A stretch of 64,000 bases of DNA from Bugula neritina. Lineage: Eukaryota > Animalia > Bryozoa. The position numbers were made by a program, and so were the translations under genes. The notes under the pieces are model-generated. The model was not told the DNA's origin. It made no database searches and worked only from the letters and a program-made list of their open reading frames with translations. The stretch covers positions 5,375,929-5,439,928 of the forward strand of contig OZ037769.1 in the NCBI GenBank assembly GCA_964035545.1. Direction: 5' to 3'. This document shows, one piece after another, positions 177 through 62,100 of the stretch. How positions within the stretch are numbered: the first letter of the stretch is position 1; every line of letters starts with the position of its first letter.

Positions 177-3100
177 CTTGTCTTTGTCTTGTCTTTATTA
201 TAAGAACAATCACCACAACCAGCAGACCAGCTGTAAGTGTAGCTGAACCAACTGAAAGTATCATAACTGTTTCCATGTTGTTTGCAGGGTTCGCTAAAGT
301 GGGCCGTGGTTTTTCGGTAGTCTCAGTCGACAAGTTGCAAAAATTGTATTTATTTTTGGATACAGTTCTTTCACATTTTGAGCTGCAGTTAATGCTGTGA
401 AGCTCGCAGTCATAGTCTTCAAACAGTTTCCCTCTATAAAAAACTGGATTGTCTTTTTTACGAGGGGAATAAATTTTATCTAGTTCAGTTACAGAATAGA
501 CATGGGAATATTTGTATGCGCAATTGGTTTGTGATGAACAGGTGCCGTCTATTTGCTGCGAAAAGACATCAAATCCGGAATTTCCATCAAAGTTGTCATT
601 AAAAGAGTTGGTGTCACTGCGACCTGCCTTATCATTTTTAGGTATTTTAGCATTTCGTATGAAATCTCTTAATATCTTCACATTGGTTTTACTACGTTTC
701 AGCACAGCCTGGCAATTTTGAAGTTCACTTTCCTTACATTTGCTTCTTGCGTACTCTTTAAATCCATATCCGAAGGTGTAAATAGCTTTAATTGTATATA
801 CGGTGTAGAGCTCTATATCAATATCTTCACTCGCAGTGGTTATATAAGGTGTGTTATTTGAACAAGCTTTCAGTTCCTCGCCTAAAACTGGGAAGTTGAA
901 AGATCCTCTTATTTTACAGTTGTTCTTTTTTTCATACATCTGTAAAAACCACTGATTTTGTCCCGTCAAATTAGGACGAAGCCCTGACAGATGTTCCTGA
1001 AAACATTCCGTCTACAAAGCATACAAAAACACTAGCGTGTCAGTAGATTCAAAGGTAACTGAAATTTGCTTGCTTACATCTTTACTAGCGTAAACTAACT
1101 TGATATTGACGATATTTTTGTACTTGATTTCACTACGGCCAAGCAATACATTTAGTGAACAAAATTTGTCCTATTAATACACAGGCAGCATCTTTGAATA
1201 ACATGTTTTCCTGATCAGCAATGGTTTATATTACTGCAAACTATCATTTCTCTGTTAATCAAATAACCACCACTTCCCCATTCCTAAATGTTTGAATTAA
1301 CAATTTTTTTACTGAAAACAAAACCTAAAGGTAAAAATAAAAATTGCAAATAAATTACATAGATATTTCAATGATTGAACTGTTCAAGCCGCAAATTGTC
1401 ACAACGACCTCTTCTGTGATTGGAGAGGGGTGTAAGACTTTGGTAGAGTAACTAAGTTATACCTCAAAGGAAGGGTTTATTTTCAATGTTATGGAACCTC
1501 TCAAGAGATGGCCATATTTTTCAATTAATGGTTTTTTCTTTTCCCAAATTTTGCCAATTACAAGTATACTGCCACTGTTTTTCCACCATGTCCTTTCTTC
1601 AAGATTCAATGCATCCAACCAATCTGTGATTGGCTAAAAATTTCATTAAATATATTATAAATAAGCATAGGAAATGCAATGCAACAATAGTAATACTATA
1701 GTAATATATTATACTATAGTATACTACTATATTAAAGCAATAACATAACATTACATTACTGCTTTAAACTGCTTTACTCAAAATATACATTGTATCACAC
1801 TGCATTACATTACATAATTATCTTTATCATGATGGAGAGCTTTCAATCCAGATGCATAAATGTTGAAAAACTGCTGCTTTTTACAAATTTAAGTAAAAAG
1901 TCTTATTGAACGAAGCTGAAGTTTTACACGCACAGTTGAGTTGTGAATTTTACTTTTTTTTATTTTAACAATAAAATTTAGATAATATTTTAATAGAATT
2001 TCACAGAAACTTATATCTTTATAAATTTCAGTGAGATTTGCTATCAGCTATCAGATTATAGTATAGTAGTATACTATGTTACATGTAGTTTCATGTTAGC
2101 ATACATTATATTACACTGCATTATATCATATTATGTTATATTATATTATATATTATACTATATTACTTTATATTATGTCATATTATCTTATTTTATATGC
2201 TATTGAATTATATCAATATAGTTTTATTAAAGGGTATATTGACCTACACAGGTAGCAATTCTGAAATAGTTTTTCTGTTTAGATAGAGCTTCACGAAAAA
2301 AAATATATTTGCAATAACATTTCAATTAGCTTTTCAGCTTTTTAATCACTATACTTTATTAAGAGGGCATTAAAAAATTAAGTGATGGAATTATTTTTAG
2401 GAAACCTAAACATTATATTATATTATATTATATTGTAATTATACTATATTATATTACTTTATATTATGTCATGTTATATGGTATTATCTTATTATATTAC
2501 ATTACATTAAATTATATTATATCACATAATATGTTATGTTATATTGTATTATATTACATTACATCATGTTATATTATATTATATTACTGCTTTATTGCAG
2601 CAAAGCGTTCAATTTTAGTTTCTAGTTGTCAATATTTGAAATTATCTAAATCAAATATTCACATTCTTCTTGAGACTAGTGACAGTAAAGTTACAGACCG
2701 ACTACTCTGTTCATACACAATAGACAAACCGCTGACCTTTTCCTCGCCAGCATATACAATCACGAAAGAAGTGCTGCTGCCGTATTTTTCTGACAAGGCT
2801 TTTGAGATATTGTTGTAGGTGGAGGGTGACTCTGTCTGAGAATAGTCTAGCGTGAAGGTTTCCAGAATACAGTAGCCACCATTGGTCAGCCTTGGTCTCA
2901 AATCCTATAATGACAGTATGTTATATTATGTTCAGTAAATGTAGAGAGAAGCCGTGGTCTAGGGGTTCGAGCTTAGGCTTAGTAAATGGTTCTATTCCAA
3001 GTAAATGTCATTGGTAATGTTAGAAAGAACATCCAGTCATAATTGCTCCTTTGCCTCATATGAATAATTTCTTAGCCAGCTTAAAATATTCTTTCCATCA

Positions 3101-6100
3101 GGGGTTCTCACAGGGATGGTGACCATATAAACTTACTATTACTATTATATATAATTTAGATATGCAATGTATAGTAATACTGTATATAATATCAAAGCAT
3201 CTAAATGTCACAGTAACCTGTGCTGATGTAGATCCATAGAGTGAGTTGGTATGCATGAGCACAACCGAGTTTATTTTTGCTCTCTCGTCTTTATTCAGCT
3301 TGTCCAACACATTGACGACATTTTGATTCTCTCTGGTCACGGATGGATGAACTCGGAGTATGTTGGGATATTTCTTTTTATCGTCTAGAACTGGAGTGGA
3401 GCCGCTGTATGACACCTGAATCAGGTCAGCGGGTATGGCAAATCTCTGCTCCTAAAATAGTTTTATACAGAAAACTGTTTAGAAACTTGCTGCTTTTTTC
3501 AACAGAGGTATAAAACCAACTTATTTTTTGTTTTGAAATTTCTTTTTTACTGAGATTTCAACACTTAATTAGCACTTTTCTATAACTGTCGTATTTATTT
3601 ATATTTTACTAAATAACTTTTACTTTGTTGAAAATTGCTTGTAAAAACTATACGCATTGAAATAGTTTTACACAAAAAACTATAAGGTCCCAAAGCACTT
3701 TTCTCTGCAGTAGACTTCATTTAACTTCTGCATCTATTTATTGTATATACTACAGCGTGTATTTTTTTGTTAAAAATTGTTTGTACAAGTACATTTTTAT
3801 GCTTTTAGTTTTACATCCATCATGTATCAGTCAGTTAAGCCGCAGAAAACAAAGTTATAGGCGCCTAAAATTTCGAAAGAATTCGTAGTTATTGCTAATG
3901 CCCTTTATATGACCTAAGAATATAAACCAGAAATCTAAAGCAAGATGTAAATCTACTCACTGCAAGAGTTATGTGGCTTGAAAAATCTCCAATTATGCCT
4001 ACAATTCTTTCTCTGTTTAGGCAGAGAGTTTCATCGTTTCTTTCACAATATTTGGTGGTGCCATAAAGGGCATCAGCTAACAGCTTTTGAGTGATGGCCG
4101 TGCTTAGGCAGGTGTCAAATATGAGCATGCCAAACTTCATGTGCAGCAACTTCTCCAGTCTTTTACTAGCAAATATGGCCGCTTCAGCTCGCAGGGACGC
4201 CTCCTCATCAAAGTAATCGCATGTCGTGAAATTAAAACTAAAAATCAAAGCAACGATACTATCAAGCAAGTTCCTTTGTTTAAATTATAGCTTAAGACTG
4301 TAAGTTTATTATGCAATTAGGAAGGGTGTCCACATTAACTGCCCAACTATTACACCAGTTAGAAATCAAGCAGGTTTTTAATCAGAACTCTAACTTATAA
4401 TAAAAAAGATTATGAATCATGGCATTGTTAAAGTTCAACCAAGTGCTGCTAATAGCAGAGCGTAAGAGTAGTAGAGGGTGGATGGTCCTAGGACAACCCT
4501 TCCCCCGTCGAGTCTTCGACTCTCCGGTGTCAGGGATTGTCCTAGGACGCATCCACCCTCTACTACTCTATTAATGTTTTTATTAATTTTTTAGTATTAA
4601 TTTTAAAAAATGTATTTTCTTTTTAGTATTTTATTTTTTATTATTAGTAATAGAAATAAATTATTATACGTTGAGAATATAATAATTTATTACCAATAGC
4701 GTTTAAACGTTATAACTTGAAAATATTGGTAAAGATTCAGTAGATTCGGTTATACCTCCATCATTCGTTGATATAACTAATTTATTACCAACTGCTCCTT
4801 GTAATTTAGGAATAGCGTAATTATTTATATTATTTATTGTAATAAGATCTGAAATATTTATATTCGTTTCTACGATATTACCATCGCTCGAAAGCATTAA
4901 TAATTTACCTCCGATTATTGGTTGTATTTTATTCATAGCGAAATTATTTATATTACTAGTCGTAATAATATCGCTAACGCTTAAACTACTATCCGCAACA
5001 TTACCCGAAGTAGTTGAAACGGTTAATTTTTCATTCGCTGGTTGTATTTTATTTATAGCGAAATTATTTATATTACTAGTCGTAACGACATCGCTAACGC
5101 TTAAATTACTATCTACAATATTACCCGTATTAGTTGATACGGTTAATTTTTCACTCGGGTCTCGTATAAGGGGTACGGCGTAATTAGATATATTAGTTTT
5201 CGTAACGACATCGTCAACTTTTAAATCGCTATCTATAACGCGTCCATCGTCGGTTGATATAGTTAACTGATTAATAGGATGTAATATTTTAGGCATACTC
5301 GTATCGTCAACGTATTTTTTTGTAGCCACGTCTTGATCGTCAGCCGGATTAATAACTCTAGATATTTTATTTTCACCCATATCTAACGTACCCGTAAGAG
5401 TACTACTACCGTTTATTAAAACGAATTTTTTTGTATTTATTGAAGAAATTCTACCGCTTCCTCCGAATTTATAAACACTCATTTATAATCGTAGTAAAGT
5501 TTTAACGACGCTAATTCGAATGGTAAAGTAATAGGCGCGCCGTCATTAACTATAATATCGTTAGGTTTACGACTAGTATAATCGCTCGAACACTCCAATA
5601 CTAATCCAATATTTTTATCGGCTTCGATATATTCCAGCATAGGTATTTTTATACTCGCGACGCCTCCTCGAATTATATATTCCTTACTTTCGTGTCTAAT
5701 AGGACCGTTAATATTTCCAATAACTAAAGTTAATTTCTTATCCTTCCAATACAAAGAATTATTATCATTAATCGGTAAATGTTGCAACTCTAATAAAGCG
5801 TACGCTAGTTCAATAGGTTTATCCACTATATACCCCAATAACATCGCTATATTAATAGTTGTATTAGTAGACTGAATAAGAAATTCATTATTCTTAGTTA
5901 CAACTCTTTCGATAAAATTATCTTTTTTTAACGATTTTCCGAATTTATAAACACTCATTTATTACGGTATATAAAATTCGTCTAACCCGTGTCTATACCT
6001 CCCATTATTTTTTGAGGAAGAAAGATCTAAAGTAATAAAGCCGTGAGGTTTTTGCCATCCCTTATAACAAAAGTTTTTAAATTCGTTTAACGTTAAATCT

Positions 6101-9100
6101 CCGTTTACGTGATCTTGATATATATGATTTAAATTTTTTCCGTCTTGAGGAAATAAGCAAATAAAATTAGCGTTTTCTCGAATAGTATTTCTAGGCAGCT
6201 TAAAATAATTTTGCGACAAATAAAAACAATCGACGTTATTATGTCGTCCTCTTACGTAATAACTTTCGCAAGTTTTTTGTTTTTCCAACATTAAATCATC
6301 GAATATTATTAAATTTTTATTATTAACGTCTAATTCGCTAGGATCATAAATGTCGTCACTAGATTCGATAAATTCGGCGTCTATATTACCGTTACCTCTA
6401 CTATTTTTTAAAACACGATTTACGTTTATACCCGAATTTATTATCGCGTCACTATTTTTAAAAAAATTTAAAATTTCTTCTTTAGTTAATTTACGTTCGA
6501 AAGCCTTCCTCATATTTATATATTCGGGTTGAGAAAGGCTTTTACCGTAAATCATAAGTTTATCGTAATCGAGCCAATTAGGTTGTAATAGCAAGTTACA
6601 AAGTAACGTAGTTTTACCGCATCCAGATTTTCCAACGATAAGACCTCTTATGCTTTTAGGAAGTAAAGGATTATTATTACGATTAATTTCGTTTTTCCAC
6701 GAAAGATTTTCTATTTCCATTTATTATAATAAATGTATTGTTGTAAGTGTAAAATTAAAACGAAAACTCTTAATTACAAAAAGAGAGTAAGTAAAAATAA
6801 TAGACTAATGGGTTACGGTAATTGCGGTCAATGCGGATGTAAAAAGACTACATTCGTTGGGTTGGGTTTAACTAATAATTTAATAAATAATTTACCCTTT
6901 GAATTGCATTATCCAGGCCATAATTTTTTAGGACCTGGTACTAAATTAAATAAGTGTTTAAATGACGACATGACTCCTAAAGAATGGAGTAAACCGGTAG
7001 ATCGAGACGACGCTATAGCCATGAGACACGACGTATGTTACGCGCTTAATAAAGATACTAAGACTAGAAACGAAATATGTGATAAAAATATGCTAGACGA
7101 ACTGAAAGCTATACCTAATCCTACGCCCGCTGAACAGCGACACAGTCGTTTCGCTTCGGCAATAATAGGAGCGAAAAAGCGTTTAGGATGGGGATGGACG
7201 AACGAGTTAGCCGAAGAACTGCATAAACCCGTACAAAAAAAATTTCGTAAAAGACGAGTTTGGGTATCGGGTATCGATAATATTTGGGCGGCTGACTTGG
7301 TTGATATGACTGAATTCGCTAAATTTAATAACGGTTATAAATATTTACTAACGGTAATAGACGTGTTTTCAAAATACGGTTGGATAATACCTTTAAAAAA
7401 TAAGACTGGAAAAGCGACGGCTTTAGCTTTAAAAACAATTTTAACTCGTCGTAAGCCTCAACATTTATGGGTTGACAAGGGAAAAGAGTTTTATAACAAA
7501 GACGTAAAGTCTTTAATAGACTTATATTCTACGGAAAATGAAGAAAAGTCTAGCGTAGTAGAGAGGTGGAATAGAACAATGAAAGAGCGAATGTTTAAAT
7601 ATTTTTCGGCTAATAATACTTATAAATATATAGACGTATTAAAAGATTTAGTAAAACGGTATAACGAGACTAAACATTCGTCTATTGGAATGACACCGAT
7701 TGAAGCTAGTAATCCTTCTAACGAAAATAAAGTACGCGTGAAATTATATCCAAACTTACCAGCGCCTTCTAAACCTAAATTCGCTATAGGTGATAGAGTG
7801 CGTATACCGCGTAAGAAACGAACGTTTGAAAAAGGTTATACTGTTAGATGGACGGAGGAGGTGTTTACTATAAGTAAAATATTATATACGAATCCGACTA
7901 CTTATAAATTAACTGACTCGGGAGGAGAAGAAATTCAAGGATCTTTTTACGAACAGGAATTACAAAAGACGAGTCAAGAAATGTATAGAATAGAGCGCGT
8001 AATTAAAAAGAAAGGTAAAAAGGCTTTAGTAAAATGGTTGGGTTATCCCGATTCTCAAAACTCGTGGGTAGATTTAAACGTTTTAGAACGATTATAGTGA
8101 ACACAAACACATTTGTGTCCATAAAAAGTGAACACAAACACATTTGTGTCCATAAAAAGTGGACACAAATTAAACGTAAAGTGGACACAAATGTGAACAC
8201 TAGACACAAAAGTGGACACAAATGTGGACACTAGACATAAAAGTGGACACAAATTAAACGTAAAGTAGACACAAATGTGTTTGTGTCCATAAAAAGTGGA
8301 CACAAATGTGGACACAAATTAATATATAATAAATGAGTTACTTAAAGATTCACGACCCTATAAAAAGAGATAAAACCGTACAAGATTTTATTTCTCGAAA
8401 GAATAAATTAAAAGAAAATTTTAAACGAGAACGCGAGCGAGAATTAAATGCTGCGATGGCTCAAGAAAAATATTTTGAACCCGTAACGACTTCGCAAGCT
8501 CAAACGACTGACGCGTTAAAACAATTGCTTATATTACCCAATTATAATATTCAACCGGCTATAACGGATGGAGTTATAAATTTAGACGAATATACGCAAA
8601 ACGCTTTAGCTGGCTTAGAACCCGGTGCTTATAACGTAAAGTGGGATGGTAATAAACACGTTATTGGTACAAAACCTATAAGTTTTAACGATGGTAAAAT
8701 AATTTTTGAAAACGAAGAATATTTGGCGACTAGAGGACTTTTAAGTCTTTTAACGCGTAAAACGCCTATAGGATACGATGATAATGATTTAGCGAATTAC
8801 GCTAATATACTCGATAATAGCGGCGCTATATATCAAAGTAAACACGGTCCCATAGATAAAAATAGTGAAAAATGGAAAAATATTGTTAGACCTATTTGGG
8901 AACAATTATATCCACAGAGAGCGAAACTCGCCGATAGTAAAAAAGCTAAAAGGCAAGTCGGTGATGGAGTAGTATATTTATCGTCTGATCCTAACGCTTT
9001 AGTAGAACGACTCGAACTTTTAATTTCTAGCGCTAAAGCCGGAAATACGGGAGTACGAAACGAAATTGTGTCTATATTAGACGAATTACTTAGAATGAAA

Positions 9101-12100
9101 ATTATTACTCGTGACTATTATAAAAGTATTCTCGTATAATAAATGTACGTTTACGATAAAAAACAACGATTACAAAAACACTACGCCGGCGGTGGAATAT
9201 TTGATACCATTAGGAATGTAGTAACTAAAATAGCTAGTAATTCTAGCGTAAGAGAATTAGGTAAAAAGGCTATAGCTAAAGCGGGTACCGCGGCCGGTGA
9301 AAAAATTGTTAACGCGATTAAAAAAAGAAGGCAAAAAAAGTTAAACGCTAAAAGTCAAGCTATATTACAAAAACTTAGTTTAGCTAAAGATGTATTAAAT
9401 AATAGTAATATAAGTAATATTTTAAAAGGAAGCGGACAAGCTATAGCTTATTAAGAAATTATTTTACTATAATAAATGGATTCTCTGAACATTACACAAA
9501 AAATTGTACTCGATACGAGCGTAGAGCGCGATCAGGTGCACGAATACGAACCCGTAACGGGAACAAATTTAGATAACCCGGGTGAAATTAGAATAGTTAT
9601 TAATCAACAAGATTTGTACGTTCAGCCGAGTAAAAGTTATTTAATTATCGAGGGGCGTTTAACTAAAGCCGACGGAACCGCTTACGCCGACGCCGACTTA
9701 GTAACGTTAACGAATAACGGTATGGCTTATTTGTTTAAAAGTATTAGATATCAACTCGACGGACACGACTTGGAATATATAAATAATCCCGGACATGCTT
9801 CGACCATGATGGGTTTGCTAACTTATCCCGACGACTACGGTAAGTCGAGAGGTCTTAATCAGTTGTGGTCAAAAGACACTACCGCAGCCGCTGCCGCCGC
9901 TAATTTAGGTTTTAACGCGCGTCAAATTTATATTATACAAAAGCCAGATCCTAAAGGTACTTTTAGTATTAAAGTGGATCTCAGACATTTGTTCGGATTC
10001 GCCGATGATTACGAAAAAGTATTATACGGTATAAAACATCAACTAACGCTAGTACGTGATACCAACGATAACGCTATTTATAGAGCTAACGGTGTAGACG
10101 CGGGAAAAATAACGTTGGATAAAGTATCGTGGTGGATGCCTCACGTAACGCCTAGTTTTGAAATGAAGCATAAACTCTATAAAATTATAGAGAGTAAGGC
10201 GCAACTACCCCTAATTTATAGATCTAGATGGTGTGATAGTATCGCGGTGCCGCAAACTACTAACTTTACGTGGCGTTTGGGTTCTAGAGGAGATACCGAA
10301 AAACCTAAATATATTATTATAGGTTTTCAAACGGGTAAGAATGAAAGTCAAACGACCAATCCGGCCATATTCGATCACGTTAACGTTAAAAGTATATACG
10401 CGATGTTAAATAGCGAGCGGTATCCCGAAGTTGATTACGATATAAATTTTGCTAAAATGAAGTTTAGTAGAGTGTACGGAGACGCTTCGAAATTTTGTGG
10501 AGAATATTACGGTATAAACGAGCTAATCGCTTATTCAAACGTATTACCTTCGGAATATAAAGATCTTTACGCTTTGTTCGTAATAGACGTTAGTAAGCAA
10601 AGCGAGGCTCTTAAAAGTAGCGTAGCCGATATTCAATTGAGAGTTCAGTTTAGTCAAAACGTGCCGGCTAATACTCAAGCTTACGCGCTAATTCTATCGG
10701 ATAAAACTATGTCTCTTAGTTCCGATGGAAATAATTTAAAAGTTATATAAATGGAAAACAAATTATTAAGAGAAATTGCCGATAATACGGCCTCTAAACA
10801 AACGATGACTATAGGAGTTACCGATACTAAAACGAGAATAATTACTCAACTTAATCCGCCTATAGAATTAAATAAAAATAAAAAATACGAAATGTGTCTT
10901 ATTAGTTTAGATACGTTTTATTCTTTTCCAAACATTAGTACCAATAGAAATTCCTATAGATGGTCTAAAGACGGTGGTACTACGTGGCATTTAGTTTTAT
11001 TACCAGTCGGAGTGTACGAATTAGATCAACTAGAAGAAGCTATTCAAGACGAAATAGTAAAAGAGGGGGGTAATAGAAACGGTATTACTTTGCAAGCTAA
11101 TAAAGTAACTTTTAGAATTATACTTAAATTAAAACCAAATTATCAAATAGATTTTAACGTTGAAAATTCTCTAAGAGACGTTTTAGGTTTTGACGCGGCG
11201 ATATATAATCAACCTTATATTGAAGCTACGAACATAGTAAATATTTTAAATATAAACGCTATACACGTACAAGTTGATTGTATTAACGGAAGTTATATCG
11301 ATGGTACTTATAAACCCGTTATCTATTCATTTTTTCCGAGCGTTAGTCCGGGATATAAAATAATAGAAAAACCTCATAATTTAATATACCTACCCGTTCA
11401 CGTTAAATATATTAAGACGTTAACCGTTACGGTAACCGATCAAAAAGGTAATTTATTAGATCTTAGCGGTGAACAACTTTCGATAAGATTTCATTTAAGA
11501 GAAGTTTAATGTATTATATAAATGGGTTATTGCGAAATTATAGGAAACGTGCCGCAGGCGCAAAAACAAAAAATAATGAACGCTTATAGAAGCGGTAAGG
11601 GTTGCGTTATTAAATTACCTCTCGAAAGCGGAAATGATAAACTAGTCGTTACGAAAACGCAAAACGATAATATTTTAAAAGCGTTAAACGCGAATAAAAA
11701 AAATATAACGCTCGAAATGTCTCCGTCGTTAGTAAAAACTAACGCGTCAATGAGCGGAGGATTTTTAGGAGCTCTATTGGGTATAGCTACGAAAGTAATA
11801 CCTACGCTATTAAAAACTATTATACCCGGCGTACTTTCAGGAGCCGCTAGCGCGGGAGTCGAAAGAGCTATTAAAGGTAAAGGTCTTTATTTGAAAAAAG
11901 GCGGATGCGTATGTTCCGTAGAACCTAATTCGAACGGTTCTATTACTTTAAAACCAGTCGCGTCGTCTAATTTAATGAAGGGTAACGGTTTATATTTAAA
12001 ACAAGGTTCTAGCTATATAAAAGGCGAAGGTTTAATTTTAGGTCCGAATAGTCCGTTTAAAAACATTCCTCTTTTAGGTATGCTGTTATAGTTTAAGAAA

Positions 12101-24330: not shown

Positions 24331-24609
24331 CTAAAGATATTGTCAAACAAGAATAGTTTAGTTTCATATAGAATAGTTTGGGGTGGACCTTACTACAGCC
24401 TTATATTACGTAAACTTTAGTTATGAACCCAGGAGCTTTATTGTTGAAATCATCGATCATGCATACAGGATGCTCTAAGGATAAACTTATGAAGTAGGGT
24501 TTGCTTGATGCATGAAAAAATTTTCAATATTTTTGACCAACAAAATCACATTCTTGGAGTTGTGTCCTTTCAAGTAGAACAAACTACTTATAAAAAAATA
24601 TTAGCACAA

Positions 24610-24808
24610 ATTTATAGTCACCATCCCTGTGAGAAACCTCTATTAAGAAAGGGTTTTTCGTTAAATCGAGCTAAGGACTTATTCAGATGGGGCATAGAAG
24701 CAATTATGACAGGATGCTCTTCCTAACATCACCAATGACCTCCACTGGAGTTCAAACCCATGACTTTGTGTTTAATAAGTAAATACTCTAACTTCTAGAC
24801 CACCACTG
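24610..24808 (-). mobile_element. tRNA-derived SINE copy
   Basis: Reverse complement of the SINE consensus (GGATGCTCTTCCTAACATCACCAATG, TTCAAACCC, CTAGACCAC). Confidence 0.8.
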
Positions 24809-28758: not shown

Positions 28759-28955
28759 ATATAGTCGCTATCCCTGTGAGAAACCCCTGATGGAAAGGGT
28801 TTTTTAAGCTGGCTAAGGACTTATTTAAATAAGTTACAGGAACAATTATGACTTGATGGTCTTCCTAGCATCACCAATGGCCTTTGTCTGGGCTCCTATC
28901 CATGACCTCTTGTTTACTAAGCAAACGCTCTAACCGCTAGACCACAGCTGCTCTC
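28759..28955 (-). mobile_element. tRNA-derived SINE copy
   Basis: Same family, full-length to CTAGACCACAGCTGCTC. Confidence 0.8.
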
Positions 28956-29577
28956 TTAAAATAACAATGGGATACTATTATAAGTAGAAGTTAAATTAGT
29001 ATATATAGTATCATATAATCGTACTATATATAGATAAAAACTAAGACATTTATAAATGCAATGTATTATAATATTTTGCTGCATGGCACCTAAAAAAACT
29101 TATAAATTACCTTGAACAGAGAAAGTAATAGATTTAATAAGCATTACTTTATCAATTTTTCCCAACTACACATTTTTAGTTTTTTTCCCTATCTTTAAAT
29201 ACTTTAAAGGCATTTTATTCTCACAGTAAGGTGTAACTTCTGAAGATTTTAGATACAAATTAATACTAAATATTATTCGAGAATCTAAATAACTTTTAGA
29301 ACGGCTACTAATTTACAATATTGTGATTAAGATTCCCTTGCACCATTCACAATATTCATAAAGTAACTTTTACTCAAGTCATTAAAAGAAGATTTGCTCT
29401 ATAGATTTTTATTGTTTTATTCTTTTCATCAAAAACATTTTCATTCTTTTCATTTAAAGGAGAATCATGGGAGTTGTCATTTCATATGAGGGCTTTAGTG
29501 CGTAGTTCATAATATTTTTATACCCCTAAGTATAAAATATTATATAGTTTATTTGTTTATTCAATGTTAATAAACTC

Positions 29578-29714
29578 GACAAAGGCCATTTGTGATGTTA
29601 AAAAGAGTATTCAGTCATAATTGCACTTGTGCCTCATCTGATTAAGTCCTTAGCCCGATTTAACAAAAACCCTTCCATCAGGGTTTCTCGCAGAGTTAGT
29701 GACTATAAACTTGT
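29578..29714 (+). mobile_element. tRNA-derived SINE, 5'-truncated
   Basis: CAGTCATAATTGC...AAGTCCTTAGCCCGATTTAACAAAAACCC...GACTATAAACTTG. Confidence 0.75.
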
Positions 29715-29935
29715 GAGAGTTCATCAAATGTAAATATTTATTGATTCAATAGATATTAAATGTTATTTATGTTTATTCAAGTTGTTAAAATATATCCATT
29801 TAATGTTTTTACCTTCTTTTGTTTAAGCATCACTTTCTCTGTTTTGACGATGACGAGAGTGTAGTTAGGACCACCCAACAAGTTTCCTGTGAAGTGACAG
29901 AAGTGAGTTTACTATGATAAAATATTTTGATTAAA

Positions 29936-34900: not shown

Positions 34901-37521
34901 ATAATAATATACTAGGCATTCAAAGGGGTAAACATATTTAGTAAACTTTAGCTCAGTGCTGCTATAATTAACTCAACAAGTCAAGGAAAAGCTCAACACA
35001 TAGATAAGACTAGCAGTCATTACAGTGAACAATGTGGGTAGTTTGTATACTGATGAATCTACACTGCGCCAGGCTTATTATTTAAATCTGCGATAATTTA
35101 TTACATTTTTAGTTCAATGAGTATTGTATAAACTCTCCAATTATACTAACAATGTAGAGCAAAATCATAGACTCCCCAACACATTCCACCAGAAAGTAGA
35201 GGCCAAAAAAGACGATGTAAAATGTTGAACCTTCATAAAAATTTTCAAGGCAAAACTAACATTTGGTTAAAAGGCCAATGAACTACTGATAATGGAAACT
35301 AGCTTGCATAAAATTAATTTCCTAATAATTGATGGCAAGTTTAAAAGCATATTTTCAAGAAAAGCCATTAAACTAAGTAGAACATTTACTATCTCTTGGT
35401 CTGCAACTACTGTACGTAGTTACTGCAACAGCTACTATAGTGTGACATTTGACGTTACAGCCACTGTGAAAGAGCATTGGCACATTAACTTGGTACTAGC
35501 CAGATGACTTTTAGAGATGAGGCCACCTATATTCTGGTACAATGAAGTTGGACCTCACACAGCTATTGGGCCAATGAGGTTGGACCTCACACAGCTTTTG
35601 AGCCAATGAGGTTGGACCTTTTAGGCCAATGACACAACTCTTCTGGGTAGATATCAACAATAGTTCTGTTTAACCTCCAATATCAACAATTGTAAGCCAT
35701 TTTTTTATCAATTATTATTCTAATAATACTTGGAGAGCAAAAAATAGCAGTGTGGTATTGCTCAGTCCTTTAACCCTCTTGCAAATTCAAATGCCTTGTG
35801 AGGATTGTTATTTTCAAGTATGTTAGCTACCTTCAGTTATATTTCAAGATTTCATATAGTGTTCCTTATTCTGTAACTTGTTACATGTTGTAATACAGGT
35901 CTAACCTCAAAGAGCAGTGCCAAAAGTTGTAACAAAACTCTATCATTTACGTAACTCTTATAGCTGTGTTGGTGCCAAGTGAAGCAATGAATAACACCAT
36001 TCTACTCCTAGTCACACTAGATTTAGTTTGTATAAAACTAATACTTCTGGTATATAATTAGCCTACTGTAATACAAACTCATGAAAAAAACGGTCAGAAA
36101 CTTCTCCATTCAGTAAAACTGAAAGTCTGATGCTAAATATCAAGTTACAACCTTCGCAACTTCTATATTGATTAGTATCATACCAGACTATGTCACGTGA
36201 CTATCCATTAAACATTCTAGTGTAGCATTGCATATTCTTCAATATTAATTTCTTTTCCAAAAAAACCTTGGCAATCAAGCATAGGCAAATCTTCAGCAAA
36301 TAAAAAAACTCACACAAGTTTATAGTCAGCATCCTTGCAAGAAAACCCCTGATGGAACGGGTTTTTGTAAAATCATGCTAAGGACTTATTCATATGAGGC
36401 ACAGGAGCAATTATGACTGGATGCTCTTCCTAACATCACCATTGGCCTTTGTCTTGACACGAACCCATGATTGCGCTAACTAGGCAAACGCTCTAATCCC
36501 CTAGACAAAAGCAGCGAAGACTTAGGATTCAAATTGATTACAAGACGCCTAATAAGAATTGACTTACTCTTCCTAAAGTGTGGTGTACCAACAAATCTCA
36601 GTCTATAGCTAGCCAACCCTGCAACAGGTATATTGGAGGCTAATGCCTTTCTGTACGTGTACTTTGGGATCCTAACACTGGAAACTCTGGAAACTTTGGA
36701 AACTCTGGAAACTCTTATCCTGAACCCTCTGCTAGACACCTGGCCTGAAAAACAAAGGTCTATTGAGTGCAAGAAACAAAATAAGTCATATAGAACTGTG
36801 GAGGTGGAGAAAAGTTTCATCACCTGACAAGTTTTTGATGTCAAGCATTGTCTGACCAGATTAGAAGGTAACTTTAGGAATTTAAAATGTGTTGCATTTG
36901 AGAACATTAATTCTTCAAGGAGGTGACTTGCTTACAAAAAGGGCTTTTTGCAGTTTATATAAAAGAATGATGTGCTAGTATTTTTCTGAAATGTTTAAAA
37001 AAACACATCAATTAGCTATCTGTTGTACAATGATCTGATGTTGACAAGCTACTGACAAACCCTAGCAGGTATTAAAGCTACCCCCCCCCCCATGCGATTG
37101 GACAAGTGATAGAGGAAAAAATGTAGCTAGGGCTTAGACTGGTAGGTTAATATCACATCTGTTGGATATTAAGTCGAAAAAATATTAACCCACCCTTACC
37201 TTTGAAATCTTAGGGTATTGTAACTTCACAAAAAAATTACTAGTGTTTTACATGAAAAGCCGCCAAGAACAAATTACATCAAAGAACTCAATTATAGGGC
37301 TCAAACATTGTATTAGGTTATTTAGAAATTTGCAAGCAGGCCTTTGTTTGGCATAGATTTGGTTTGATATTTGATTGTAAGGGAAATGTTTCAAGTTACA
37401 AATGTTAATAAGAATAGAAGACACATGAAGTGAGTAGCTGGTACACTGTGTCTTCTACCCACGCATACTTACCTAGTGATGAAACTAGAGCTAACAAACC
37501 AAGAAGACATCCAACTTTCAT
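31904..37521 (-). CDS. Shisa-like (Shisa/WBP1/VOPP1 superfamily) single-pass protein, paralogue 1
   Basis: Exons 37473-37521 (signal peptide MKVGCLLGLLALVSSL), 34286-34445 (C..FVCP..YCCG..QYCC), 32844-32995 (TM + CCC), 31904-32067 (Pro/Tyr-rich tail, APPY). Confidence 0.75.
36306..36516 (-). mobile_element. tRNA-derived SINE copy
   Basis: Same family. Confidence 0.8.
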
Positions 37522-47140: not shown

Positions 47141-50100
47141 TTACTGACTTTTAATTATTTTTATCATGCTTTCAGAAAGCACAGTTCTGTAGAGCCTTAT
47201 ATAGCAGTAAGTAACACCAAAGGATGTGTATACAGACATGAGTAAAAGAGGTAGGAAAGGCAGTCTCTCTGATAATCCGAGCAGGCGATGACCCATGCCG
47301 TAGTATAATATGACCACTACTAAGCCATACAAGTAACACATCTCGTACTTGGACAATAGGCAGTGTGCAGGGGCAGATGACTTCACTTCCCTGTAAATAT
47401 ACACATTAAATTTAAGGCATTAAAAAAACTCACGCAAGTTTATTGTCTCCATCCCTGATGAAAAAAGTTTTTGTTAAATCGGGCTAAGGACTTATTCATA
47501 TGTGACACATGAGCAATTATGATTGGATGCTCTTCCTAACATCACCAATGGCTTTTGACATTAAATAAGGCATCACACGGGGTAAAATTAACAAATTGCC
47601 CAACAAGATCTCCATATGTGAAACACAGAACTTGATATTTAGAGCGGAAAAAGGCTTTATTTACGTTTAACATTTTACACTTTAAATGGCTGGCTTCTAC
47701 CATTATTTTATATATTTTTATTCTAAAATTAAGCATGGCGTACTTTTTTCACGAGACTCATGACAAATTTTATATAATTTAGCAAAGTTGTTGAAAATGG
47801 TCGATTTTATCCTTAAAAATTATATCACATCATCATAGTCACACCACACACAACATACACGTCTTGGTCACATCATGGCCACATTACAATTATATCATAG
47901 TTGGACACACAATGATCACATTTGAGTCACATTTTGTAAATTATTTCAAAGCAATAAGTATTGTGCAGCTTACAATGTCTGAGTTACCAGATGTAGTGAC
48001 ATCCAAGAGTAGATGGAATAAGCAGCCAGCCCAAAGTACAGCACAGGTTGTTCTGTAATAAGAATAAGCAAAATACAAGTCTATTAGAGAAAGCCTTGGT
48101 TACAATATTCCAATACTATATCATTAATTATTACTATGGTGATTGAAAATCATAATACAATACTGGCAGGCCTACGTTTAAAACAATTTTATAAAAATAA
48201 ACACTTTAATTCCTAATTCATGACACAGGATATTGAACTGTTTAGTCTGCTTAGCTGTTTATTCATGAGCTAGTCCAGGGAGTTATCATTTCTCTACTAC
48301 AGCCAGTCACAAGTTAAATTGACAAGGAAACAAGTTCAACTCATTTTTTGTATTGGAAAATTAACTTGGTCATACAGCCCAAAAAAACCAATTCCTCGTT
48401 TAACTTTAACCATCACACATGCATTAATGTTATCATAAAAAGAAATTAGGTAGAGCACGTAGAGGTTTAACATAATATTCTGATTTAATTTTGTTTTCTG
48501 CGCCAATTCAATAAACTCACCAAAAATATGAAAGGATACCCTAAACATTAAATGGAACTATGCTTAACAAATTATTCACTGTTTTCGATTTCAATTTAAT
48601 TTTATTAGAGTATACAATTACACTATTTGATTTTTAAAAAGTGGTCAGCAACGTTTAAATTATGTTGCAAGTAATCTAGCCTTAACCAGTAACACCTATT
48701 CAACTAATAACTACCCACAAATTGCCATAAGATCCTACATAAAGAACTTACCAAACTGCGTAAATATTAAGGGGAGCAGTGAGCAGTGCCCCGTAATAGA
48801 TAGAAAAAGAAAGTGCCGAGTGTACTGTGGATTGTCTACAGCAAGCAGAGCTAGAGGTATGATGACCAGTAGAATTGCCTTTTCATGCACATGCCAGCCA
48901 AACATGAAGGAGGTAAATCCACACAGTATGAGTGACTTGAGAAAGCTCTTCGGACCAATGGGGTTGTTCCACAAGTGTATTACGGACGGCTGAAAGCAGA
49001 TGAACATTATACAGCCTGCCATATTGAAGTCATATTACAACGTGACTGACAGTTCAAAGGATCAAAATGACTTCTTTTACAATAAAAATAATTCACTGAA
49101 CTTTAATGAGCTGCCGGGTAAGTATTTGGATATCGGATGGAAGATAATTATTTTCTCCAAGAAATCTGCATTAAATTGGATTGGAGTTCCATGAAGCAAG
49201 AGAAAACTAATTAATTGGCAAAATAATTACATGAAAAAACACACCAAATCAACTGTGTGTGTAGATTCGTGTGTAGATGTGTGTGTAGATGTGTATGTAA
49301 ATGTGTGTGTAGATGTGTGTGTAGATGCGTGTGTAGATGCGTGTGTAGATGTGTATGTAGATGTGTGTGTAGATGCGTGTGTAGATGCATGTGTGGGCAT
49401 ATTATGCATGTGATTCATGATTTAAACAAAAGTTGAAAGATACCATTTGGAAAAATTAAGCAAACAGAAGTATGCTCTTATGGATGCAAGGTCAACAAAG
49501 TCAACAGTAAAATAATATTTCACTCTATTGAATTAAAACACAAAAGTAAAAACTAACCAGTATAAAGAGAGCTGTTAATATAAAAGTAGCCAAAGGTTTA
49601 ACAGAAGGTAGAACAGCATGATTGAACTCCTGCACTAGGCCCCCTGTCATAGCAGCCGATTCGTTTGATAGTGGAACAAGGTCTAATTTTCTACCTACAA
49701 CATATTTTCCGGTGTTTAGTGCTAGTACTACACCAACTAATACCTGTAAATAGTCGCAAACCAAAAAATTAGATGAAATAACTTCTAAAATTAACATTCC
49801 AGCAATCTTTTAGGAAGCAGGACGTGGTCTAGGGGTTGGAGCACTAACTTAGTAAACCTGAAGTCATGGGTTCAAACCCCAGTAAAGGTCATTGGTGATG
49901 CTAGGAAGAACATCCACTCATAATTTCTCCTCTGCCCCATCTGAATAAGTCCTTAGCCTAATTTAACAAAAACCTTTTCCATCAGGCGTGGTGACTATAA
50001 ACTCGCACAAGTTGTCCAGGCAACTTTGTTAATAACACAACACCAACAAAATATAATGTGTAAATACAGGAATAGATTGGCCAGCTTACCTGTAATATAA

Positions 50101-59100: not shown

Positions 59101-62100
59101 CTTTGCATAGAAAATTTAAAGAGCTGATATTTACCTGCATGCAACTTGGTGCACGCAGATTCAACCTTGACATAGTCTGGTACTAAGACTAGGAGACACA
59201 GTGCAAACCATAGACCTCTCCAAAAGGGAAGGATTAACCCTGCTCTGTGCTTTGAACGATTCAGCTCCTTCTTAAAGCTTACAAGAGGTAAATGTTTGCC
59301 AAGTACCTCTACATCTCTCTCAATGTAGGAATCCAGCCAATAGAATGGCACCAAAAAAATGGTGGCAATTATTAAAAGTGAATCTACAATGTAAATTATG
59401 TCATACATTGATCTATAGAATGGAAGTAATACTTTTCTCATGAAACTACTATTTAGAAAAAGAGATGATATGTGATTGGCTAGGAACAATGCATAAGTTG
59501 CAAAACAACTGTGGCTGTACTAATTTGTACAAACTCCTCTAAATATATTTTAGAACAAAAGTAGCAAATTTATAATGACAATTATTGTTTGTAAATGTAG
59601 AGAGATTGAAAATATAATTCCCTATATCATTTTATATAACAAATCTCTTTACTAAAAATATTAAATACATTTAATTGCATGAATTCAGAATTAAAAAAGT
59701 TATTATTACCGTGAACTAAATTTATATTTTACATTTCACAAACTAACAATTTTGTTTATGTATTATTACCCACCATATTATTATGTTGACTACAGTTTGC
59801 TAGATCAGGATTACAATGATAACATGTACGGGCATATCCAAGTTGCAGCAGAATTAAGCCTTTGTCTGATCTTTTAAATTAAATTCCGTACAAGGGCATT
59901 ATTATGGCGAAAGAAAAAACAGATGATGTAGGACCACCTAATACGTATGTACTCACTAATTGCACTTAGCCAGTACATGTGGTAACTGGAAAGTGCATAT
60001 GACAAGTGCATGTGGTAACTATGGATGGTAAGTGCATATAGTAAGTGTGTATGGTAAGTAAAACTAATCAGCAAATACTTTACCAAGATTAGGCGACGTC
60101 CAGACTATTGATTGCCTTTGGAGAGAACCGTCATCTCTAGGAGTAAAGGAAGTTGTGGTGAAGTCGTGTAACGTGCAGATTCCCAGTGACATCATTTGCA
60201 GAAAGCAGGTGGTAAGCAACGACTTTACCTCTAAAATCGTTTCAAGAGAAATTACCAATGCATGTGTAGCAAGATAATTGTTGTGTAACTTGGAGGTAAT
60301 TCATTGTGAATGGTAGTTCATAAAATCTCACGCAAGTTTATAGTCGCCATCCCTCTGAGAAGGTAGTATTTCAAATTTTCTAATGTTTGTCGAAGTCATA
60401 AAATGACAGAATATGTTTTTATTTAGTTGTCTACTGTACTATTACAATATTGTGCATCACATAGTGTGTTTATTTTAATAAAGTATTCTACATTGTGTCA
60501 ATTATTATGTTATTATATTGTAAGTTATGTATTATATCTGTTCTAAAACTATTATCGCTTCTGTGAGAAACCCCTGATGGAAAGGGTTTTTAGTTAAATC
60601 AGGCTAAGGATTTATTCAGATAAAGCACAGAAGCAATTATGACTGGATGCTCTTCCTAACACTACCAATTGCCTTTGTAGGGGTTCGAACCTATGACTTC
60701 GTGTTTACTAGGCAAACGCTCTAACCCCTAGACCTCGACTGCTCCAAATGGCAGTTCATACTAGTCAATTAATTTCCTGTCCATTAGCCTTCACGATTAT
60801 AAATCATAAAAAGTCAACCATTTCTCAATTTTATCACTATAACTTCTTGAGCATTGTCTACACATATAACATTATGTATCTTTCACCAGTCTTGTAATTT
60901 GATTTACTCTGGAGTCTAATTTACTCTTAATTGATTTCCAGGCACTGTAAGCCTGCATATATTATACAATAGAAGATAACTCAGAGTCATCAGTTTTGAT
61001 GCCAAGAAAACTTTCATCATTGCTAAACCATAATTTAGACTTACTAATATGCTTATCCGGGAGAGTTGGACTGAGAAAGGTTTTGCATAGTAAGGGGAGA
61101 AACCCGAAACTGTTAATGAGAAGACAACCCCTGATTAGATCAACTTGTGGAAGAATACGGAACAGGAGCAGACAAATTCCCACTGTGGAAAGGCTTGATG
61201 AAGCCAACACCTGAAATACAGAAGCAAATTTAAGTTCATTTAAAATTAGTCTCAATAATGTAATTTTATTATAATTAAAATTTGCACTGTCAACACAATT
61301 ATTTTATTATATATATATATATATATATATAGATAATTATAGGCACATTATATTATGTTTTAGTCATTTAGTGGTGTACATTGGCAAACTCCGGATAGGA
61401 AAAAGCTGCAAAAATCATTACGCCAAGTATAAACAGGCAAAATCTTCAAGTTACTTTTAATCATTATCCTAGTCACTTTACAATTAAGCTAGGAGTCATT
61501 TTTCAGAGCTAAAGTGTCTAATATTTAAAACTAGTTTTATCATGCAGGTCATGTTGGTGCATCCAACGCTTACAAAACATAATAATATATTATTATGTGT
61601 TATATGTTATACACATGTTAATATACTTAATTATGGATAACTAAGTATAACATCGTAAATTAAATCAAATGTACAATCTATAATTTTACAAATCAAATTA
61701 TTGATACGGGAATAATTCAAAATTTGATCAGCTATTGCAGGGACTTTACCAAAACTGCCCTCTAATATATACATATGACTCATACCCAGACTAAAACAGC
61801 TCCTTTTGGCCAGCACTGGTTGTAGACTTGGCAGGAAAGACACAGGTGTTTCACCATGTTGACCACCTCTAGAGACGCAAGGCATACGATCAAATAGGTC
61901 AATGCATTAGATTTGCTTGAGGTCTAAAATATAATTTCAGAGTGAAATAAATTTATATAATGCAATGTTCACTGTCTACTAAAAATATGATGTTAGAAGT
62001 TAACATGCAATTAATCAGCAAAACTTGCATTTTATTTGTTATGTTTATTCTATTGGTTTCAGACAAAAACCAATCAATTTCCTAAAATGGTTAATTCTTT

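What the first reader, a model, noticed from the sequence alone, without database searches (positions are those of the whole stretch)
4467..4567. Each terminus is a 101-nt imperfect hairpin that begins AGTAGT in either orientation (possible flip/flop telomere)
Seen: both ends (4467-4567, 18922-19022) fold into one long hairpin with 18+12+4-bp stems, two single-base bulges, internal mismatches and a GAGTC-TTC-GACTC apex (C-GAA-G triloop on the other strand). The palindrome GTCCTAGGAC lies in each arm, and the unit is a GC-rich island in an AT-rich TIR. The terminal AGTAGT therefore has an internal inverted twin (ACTACT 4562-4567). Known: Polintons are modelled as protein-primed with plain TIRs, whereas incompletely paired terminal hairpins with flip/flop isoforms typify parvoviruses, poxviruses and ASFV; C-GAA-G DNA mini-hairpins are very stable. 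Inference: the free genome may have fold-back or closed ends resolved by nicking at ..TAATAG/AGTAGT, and the integrated copy would be the extended form.
Basis: partly seen in the sequence, partly recalled or inferred. Interest (0 to 1): 0.85.

Follow-up and report, generated by a model that had tools for sequence, protein, structure and literature searches.

The report
Polinton with conserved hairpin-shaped genome tips
Both ends of an intact virus-like jumping gene (a Polinton) carry a 101-base stretch predicted to fold back into a hairpin whose two arms appear to have changed together in related copies, so it is likely a working end signal for protein-primed copying; the proposed parvovirus-like flip/flop ends were not seen in the few copies that could be checked.

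Summary
A complete 14,556-bp Polinton/Maverick (4467-19022, 438-bp TIRs, 6-bp target duplication) begins at each tip with the same 101-nt imperfect palindrome (z -11 to -12; 56% GC against 21% in the rest of the TIR). Contigs of four public runs show a multi-copy family. In variant copies both arms appear to have changed together and still pair, while the adjoining spacer differs. Flip/flop was not seen: both window ends and 2 firm plus 1 probable variant contigs share one orientation, and 0 of 5 joints change strand. That sample is small and the tables were cut, so the test is inconclusive. The polymerase keeps its terminal-protein fold, predicted linking serine and vOTU Cys/His, and no HUH or tyrosine resolvase was found. 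Best reading: a fixed-polarity fold-back end signal of a protein-primed genome, like Streptomyces telomeres, with the GAA loop on the 3'-end strand. Hairpin priming, with the endonuclease-VII-like insert of the polymerase as resolvase, remains open. A 2026 preprint reports terminal palindromes in protist virophages/PLVs, mostly without pPolB, and this scan noted subterminal hairpins in other Polintons. New variant of a known kind.

The parts
4461..4466 (.). Left target-site duplication (6 bp)
   Evidence: identical to 19023-19028
4467..4567 (+). Left terminal 101-nt imperfect palindrome; starts with the (AGT)2 Polinton end motif; TTC loop on +, GAA loop on -
   Evidence: end motif as in PMC8097293 section 7
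4467..4904 (+). Left TIR, 438 bp; reaches into the 3' end of ORF 4703-5482
4568..4654 (.). AT-rich spacer inside the hairpin; differs among family copies after about 6-8 shared bases
   Evidence: loose ends behind 4573/4575 and before 4655
4703..5482 (-). 259-aa ORF with internal repeats, no Pfam family above cut-off
5479..5958 (-). 159-aa ORF, paralog of 17533-18060 and 18057-18578
5962..6720 (-). A32-like packaging ATPase
   Evidence: Pox_A32 1.9e-08
6733..8097 (+). rve integrase with N-terminal DUF5679 and PLA2-like parts and C-terminal chromodomain
9476..10750 (+). Double jelly-roll major capsid protein
   Evidence: PF21738 3.9e-58; closest named relatives 56-58% in a scallop and a bryozoan
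10751..11509 (+). Probable minor capsid protein (inferred from size and position; no Pfam match)
   Evidence: 45% identical ORFs in related Polintons L014, L015
13478..17134 (+). Protein-primed PolB: terminal-protein-like domain (about aa 97-225, Ser206), vOTU (Cys254, His344), exonuclease with endonuclease-VII-like zinc insert (about aa 520-555), polymerase motifs
17131..17532 (+). Adenain-like maturation protease
   Evidence: Peptidase_C5 9.6e-04, below cut-off; 55-58% to L014/L015
18585..19022 (-). Right TIR, 438 bp
18922..19022 (-). Right terminal 101-nt palindrome, same isoform as the left one
19023..19028 (.). Right target-site duplication

Best explanation
The 101-nt tip palindrome is likely a conserved, fixed-orientation fold-back end signal of a Polinton predicted to replicate as a linear genome primed by its own terminal protein. 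Shown: the palindrome, its identical polarity at both ends, and the intact-looking terminal-protein, vOTU and polymerase motifs. Read from separate contigs: concerted change of both arms among copies. Inferred: when the polymerase displaces a strand, each tip folds at once. The strand that ends at the tip forms the hairpin with the compact GAA loop, which would shield the 3' end and mark it for the terminal-protein/polymerase complex. The inner arm would serve as a built-in template to rewrite a nibbled tip, which fits the perfect outer 18 bp. Pairing of the two 438-bp TIRs would then absorb both hairpins by branch migration and restore a duplex origin. Copying from the tip with a protein primer never inverts the unit, so one isoform is expected.
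For: Fold far beyond chance. Variant copies (read by eye from tables 3, 4, 7): an inner-arm variant with changes at 4534, 4537, 4538 and either 4540/4541/4543 or a deletion at 4543 occurs in X1, X3 and X7. A one-contig outer-arm variant in X3 is complementary to these inner variants at 14-15 of 16 positions but to the window's inner arm at 10 of 16; the A4490-T4543 pair is lost from both arms. The spacer next to the hairpin differs among copies (loose ends behind 4573/4575, before 4655). One isoform in all informative ends. Ser206 in G-S-x-W is kept in 39 of 41 relatives, Cys254 and His344 in 41 of 41. The model of aa 94-411 (pLDDT 81) matches Y-family little-finger domains (Z 7.7, rmsd 3.0, 104 aligned) and OTU domains (Z 7.8, rmsd 3.7, 103 aligned), the arrangement described for Polinton terminal proteins (10.1101/2024.03.18.585575, section 6 and passages). 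Precedent: Streptomyces protein-capped ends carry palindromes with GNA loops on the 3' overhang and use fold-back for tip repair (PMC5449611, passages).
Against: No free genome, protein cap or fold was observed. Outer and inner variant arms come from separate short contigs, so their linkage is inferred. Arms of any palindrome can co-evolve by template switching without function. A fully paired 3' end is also a ready primer, which argues for self-priming. Fold-search Z values under 8 are middling, and the terminal-protein motifs are conserved family-wide, so they say nothing specific about hairpin-bearing elements. The three related IMG/VR contigs with TIRs show no tip hairpin, but they also lack the AG-type tip and look truncated.
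Confidence: 0.5

Rival explanations
1. Hairpin-primed copying that keeps one orientation: the 3' hairpin would prime the second strand, and the closed end or dimer junction would be cut asymmetrically as a cruciform, likely by the endonuclease-VII-like insert of the polymerase or by the integrase.
For: The stem is blunt and pairs the very last base. The endonuclease-VII-like zinc insert has its C-x-x-C, D-H-C-H and C-N residues in 30 of 30 relatives, and Pfam matches 30 of 31 alignment members. T4 endonuclease VII resolves cruciforms (recalled). A parvovirus left end was reported as flip-only and resolved asymmetrically (PMC1185569, passages). The same model was proposed for Halocafeteria virophages/PLVs (10.64898/2026.07.28.741278, section 7).
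Against: The insert is common in Maverick polymerases (PMC5803895, passages) and has been read as a homing-nuclease or intein relic (10.1101/2024.03.18.585575, passage). This copy scores below the Pfam cut-off. The terminal-protein module is kept.
Confidence: 0.16
2. One reading: covalently closed or fold-back telomeres resolved by a nick at the inner arm, giving flip and flop isoforms.
For: Mismatched terminal hairpin of parvovirus-like size; inner twin of the end motif.
Against: No opposite isoform among 2 firm and 1 probable variant contigs, 0 of 5 joints change strand, and none of the 12 shown of 20 indel rows is the 4549 or 4536 deletion expected of it. No HUH or tyrosine recombinase among 15 ORFs.
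Confidence: 0.1
3. Excision or integration signal: in looped-out single strands or as a cruciform, the hairpin would rebuild a duplex element end exactly at the host boundary for the rve integrase.
For: The stem base coincides with the target-duplication boundary. The preprint links such palindromes to particular RVE integrases (10.64898/2026.07.28.741278, section 7).
Against: Intact vertebrate Mavericks are described with short end motifs only (PMC8097293, section 7; no occurrence of 'hairpin' or 'palindrom'). On the strand that starts at the tip, the recessed ACT end lies at the inner boundary, the wrong side for excision (inference).
Confidence: 0.1
4. Neutral relic: one ancestral fold-back event duplicated the tip, and arm-to-arm template switching has kept the arms alike since.
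For: Concerted arm change is expected of any palindrome. One contig in X3 joins the tip arm straight to the interior (joint 4491 to 4655), so hairpin-less copies exist.
Against: The G4549 bulge and the asymmetric apex appear to persist across variants although switching should erase them; no substitution in 4503-4533 is among the 40 shown of 114 rows. The unit is a GC-rich island that outlasts its neighbouring spacer.
Confidence: 0.14

Closest known systems
Polintons/Mavericks of animals (alpha-type adintoviruses; PMC8097293, PMC8502044)
   Same: (AGT)2//(ACT)2 ends, 6-bp target duplication, 438-bp TIR, pPolB with OTU, rve integrase, ATPase, protease, double jelly-roll capsid, PLA2-like domain
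   Different: The first 101 nt of the TIR fold back on themselves; neither paper's main text contains 'hairpin'
Halocafeteria seosinensis virophages (subtypes 1, 2, 5, 6) and PLV subtype 4 (10.64898/2026.07.28.741278)
   Same: Palindrome within the TIR next to the target duplication; hairpin priming proposed
   Different: There mostly with non-pPolB replication genes and 52 nt long in subtype 5; here 101 nt, imperfect, in an element with intact-looking terminal protein, vOTU and pPolB. The preprint's text has no 'flip', 'orientation' or 'imperfect'
Streptomyces archetypal telomeres (Tpg/Tap; PMC5449611)
   Same: Protein-primed linear ends with terminal palindromes, GNA loops on the 3' strand, fold-back repair of the tip
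   Different: Several short palindromes, internal origin with end patching, unrelated terminal protein; a functional analogy only
Parvovirus terminal hairpins (PMC1185569) and poxvirus flip/flop telomeres (PMC8956199, listing only)
   Same: Imperfect terminal hairpin of about 100 nt with bulges and mismatches
   Different: They need an HUH nickase (NS1/Rep) or a junction resolvase and lack a terminal-protein primer; flip/flop not seen here

Membership tests
Polinton/Maverick | pPolB with terminal-protein and vOTU domains | tested here: met
Polinton/Maverick | rve integrase | tested here: met
   rve 1.4e-08 above cut-off
Polinton/Maverick | TIRs with (AGT)2 or (AG)3 end motif and 6-bp target duplication | tested here: met
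Polinton/Maverick | Capsid module (MCP, ATPase, protease, minor capsid) | tested here: met
   MCP and ATPase above Pfam cut-off, protease below cut-off; minor capsid inferred from position and relatives
Flip/flop hairpin telomere (parvovirus, poxvirus type) | Incompletely paired terminal palindrome | tested here: met
   (predicted fold)
Flip/flop hairpin telomere (parvovirus, poxvirus type) | Two inverted-complementary isoforms | tested here: inconclusive
   One isoform in 2 window ends and 2 firm + 1 probable variant contigs; tables cut
Flip/flop hairpin telomere (parvovirus, poxvirus type) | Encoded nickase or resolvase | tested here: inconclusive
   No HUH or tyrosine recombinase by Pfam; an endonuclease-VII-like insert is present in pPolB, activity untested
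Flip/flop hairpin telomere (parvovirus, poxvirus type) | Closed or snap-back ends on free genomes | not testable with these tools
   no raw or long reads were offered
Streptomyces-type protein-capped palindromic end (works-like claim) | GNA-closed hairpin on the 3'-end strand | tested here: met
   C-GAA-G loop on the strand that ends at the tip (predicted fold)
Streptomyces-type protein-capped palindromic end (works-like claim) | Protein covalently bound to 5' ends | not testable with these tools
   only the predicted linking serine was checked
Separate MITE-like 101-bp element | Solo copies with their own target duplication | tested here: inconclusive
   None in the 64-kb window; shown inner junctions in contigs continue into the same first spacer bases; no whole genome held
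Structured RNA gene (Rfam) | Gathering score of a family | tested here: not met
   5 matches, all far below gathering; four are generic miRNA hairpins

The most novel reading that the evidence does not exclude
An integrating Polinton that keeps a terminal protein yet also replicates through self-priming hairpin ends, with the endonuclease-VII-like insert of its polymerase resolving the cruciform junction: a living intermediate between protein-primed linear genomes and the hairpin telomeres of poxvirus-like viruses, which also gives a job to an unexplained domain of Polinton polymerases.
Probability: 0.2. Interest if true: 0.85.

Novelty: new variant of a known kind. Interest (0 to 1): 0.52.

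Why it matters
How Polintons excise and start replication is still a model without direct test (the preprint, section 7, calls for experiments on such ends). An asymmetric tip palindrome is a built-in marker: counting its orientation at insertion junctions separates protein priming (one isoform) from symmetric hairpin transfer (two isoforms) using sequence data alone. This multi-copy, recently inserted family is suited to that count. It also extends tip palindromes, reported for protist virophages/PLVs mostly without pPolB, to a canonical pPolB Polinton of probable animal host.

Tried and rejected
No whole genome is held for the window, so a census of ends could not be made. A scan of metagenome contigs with the apex 19-mer gave 13 loci, all unrelated sequence with different flanks. 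A scan of genome contigs with the tip 18-mer gave 4 single matches without inverted repeats. Single-protein scans of viral contigs found nothing. Alignment scans gave 2 and 14 loci (14 distinct contigs). Of these, 3 have TIRs (L014/L141, L149, L153), none starts with an AG-type tip and none folds at the end, so they are uninformative; several other loci were fetched only in part. The depth drop at 4607-4654 is not used as evidence, because the tool filters records. PDB sequence search of pPolB gave nothing meaningful. A closer second look at the inner junction in contigs is missing, which leaves the isoform count small. Kapitonov and Jurka 2006 is not held; its model is taken from the preprint's figure legend. 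Rejected: assembly artefact (identical at both ends, and the region is covered by contigs of 4 of 4 runs from two studies); the 10-bp arm palindrome as a separate signal; an RNA gene.

Full report
Observation. The two coordinates mark the tips of one element, 4467-19022 (14,556 bp), with 438-bp TIRs that differ at 5 positions, none within the first 101 nt, and a perfect 6-bp target duplication. Both strands fold at z -11 to -12, with 0 of 200 shuffles as good; the best of 6,354 other windows reaches -23.7 against -40.4 and -43.2 kcal/mol. The unit is 56% GC in a TIR that is otherwise 21% GC. Because the ends are an exact inverted pair, the strand that ends at a tip always carries the GAA loop.

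The element. Fifteen ORFs were scanned against Pfam: rve integrase, A32-like ATPase and double jelly-roll capsid pass the cut-off; the protease matches below it. Closest named capsid relatives are from a scallop and a bryozoan at 56-58%, so the host is probably an invertebrate animal (inference). The end motif and target duplication are those described for Mavericks (PMC8097293, section 7). It is a canonical, apparently intact and recent Polinton.

Is the hairpin kept? Ten runs hold part of the left end; I laid contigs of 4 of them on 4367-5066 (222, 243, 163 and 93 contigs laid; shown were 40 of 114 substitution rows, 12 of 20 indel rows, 5 joints, 24 of 132 loose ends, 32 of 729 pieces). The family is multi-copy and diverse. 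Read by eye, an inner-arm variant (changes at 4534, 4537, 4538, with either 4540/4541/4543 or a deletion at 4543) occurs in X1, X3 and X7. A one-contig outer-arm variant in X3 is complementary to these at 14-15 of 16 positions, and to the window's inner arm at only 10 of 16. The base pair A4490-T4543 is missing from both arms. No substitution within the apex 4503-4533 is among the rows shown, and copies diverge 6-8 bases inside the hairpin. The arms therefore appear to change in concert while the adjoining spacer turns over. Limits: outer and inner variants are on different contigs, and palindrome arms can co-evolve without function.

Flip/flop. An opposite isoform laid on the + strand would show 11 mismatches in 4504-4533 and gaps at 4536 and 4549. 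Record 1/9 (one 230-nt contig seen in X1 and X3) runs from 4504 to 4599 with 12 differences and 1 gap, at least 3 of them in the inner arm by matching depths, so it is the window's isoform. The X1 joint 4532 to 4639 is colinear, and the X3 joint 4491 to 4655 probably starts with the bulge-less tip arm. None of 5 joints changes strand, and no shown indel row is a deletion at 4549 or 4536. That is 2 firm and 1 probable variant contigs in one orientation (p about 0.13-0.25 under 50:50), with many rows hidden: leaning against flip/flop, not decisive. Searches for more ends failed, and IMG/VR relatives lack their tips.

Enzymes. A model of pPolB aa 94-411 (42 sequences, pLDDT 81) splits into a little-finger-like domain (Z 7.7, rmsd 3.0, 104 aligned) and an OTU domain (Z 7.8, rmsd 3.7, 103 aligned). 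The Z values are middling, but the order is that described for Polinton terminal protein plus vOTU (10.1101/2024.03.18.585575, section 6 and passages). Ser206 lies between the last helix and strand of the first domain beside a glycine and is kept in 39 of 41 relatives; Cys254 and His344 in 41 of 41; exonuclease and polymerase motifs are intact. Protein priming is therefore the default. No HUH or tyrosine recombinase was found. The polymerase holds an endonuclease-VII-like zinc insert (30 of 31 alignment members), already noted for Mavericks (PMC5803895, passages) and read as a homing or intein relic by others.

Mechanism. Best reading (0.5): a fixed-polarity fold-back end signal for protein-primed, strand-displacing replication. 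The displaced tip would fold, the GAA-loop hairpin would guard and mark the 3' end, the inner arm could template tip repair, and TIR pairing would absorb the hairpins (the 101-bp duplex is -141.5 kcal/mol). These steps are inferred. The analogy is the Streptomyces telomere: protein-capped, palindromic, GNA loops on the 3' strand, fold-back repair (PMC5449611, passages). Rivals: hairpin priming that keeps orientation, with cruciform cutting (0.16; a flip-only parvovirus end is reported in PMC1185569, passages); neutral relic (0.14); symmetric flip/flop (0.1); integrase signal (0.1).

What is known. In ten literature searches I saw no report of a tip hairpin in an animal pPolB Polinton. Word searches of PMC8097293, PMC8502044, PMC8363768 and PMC12220804 found no 'hairpin'; PMC11296320, PMC12085832 and PMC10680173 use the word for other things (passages). 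PMC8956199 was seen as a listing only. Kapitonov and Jurka 2006, Pritham 2007 and Repbase entries were not seen and could mention such tips. Earlier notes of this scan describe subterminal hairpins in Giardia Polintons and in a polymerase-less Maverick and neutral loop flips in other palindromes; I did not check them.

Verdict. New variant of a known kind; interest 0.52.

Noticed in passing
window 6733-8097: The integrase ORF carries a DUF5679 part and a PLA2-like domain in front of rve and chromo in one reading frame; in relative L014 the two parts match as separate adjacent segments, and in L015 only the front part was matched in the contig.
   Followed up: partly
window 8094-8323: Intergenic array of 31- to 46-nt direct repeats, partly inverted, between integrase and the next ORF; the strongest fold outside the tips (-23.7 kcal/mol). 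Possible promoter or binding array.
   Followed up: no
window 18592-18786: The right TIR carries a 64-codon copy of the 3' end of ORF 4703-5482, so the TIR has spread over a gene end.
   Followed up: partly
window 5479-5958, 17533-18060, 18057-18578: Three paralogous 159-175 aa ORFs (30-58% identical) near both ends, with no Pfam match and no tblastn match in L014/L015; ORF 4703-5482 shares their N-terminal start motif.
   Followed up: partly
window 4491-4655 (contig joint in run X3): A copy in which the tip arm joins the interior directly, without apex and inner arm; a loose end in X7 looks like the same junction. Decay product or a hairpin-less sub-family.
   Followed up: no
window 4465-4466 and 19023: The target duplication extends the stem by 2 bp on the left and 1 bp on the right; one insertion cannot tell chance from target choice.
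   Followed up: no
window 2946-3151, 24584-24808, 28760-28987, 29572-29721, 36292-36515, 47412-47557, 49782-50013, 60310-60741: Dispersed host repeat family of about 100-200 bp in both orientations.
   Followed up: no
L001, L003-L005, L007-L010, L013: AT-rich metagenome contigs carry an intergenic-looking repeat that shares the same 19-nt apex motif but has unrelated flanks.
   Followed up: no
L149:1-85: A distant IMG/VR Polinton relative has a GC-rich, moderately folding stretch near its contig ends inside the TIR; the true tip seems missing.
   Followed up: partly
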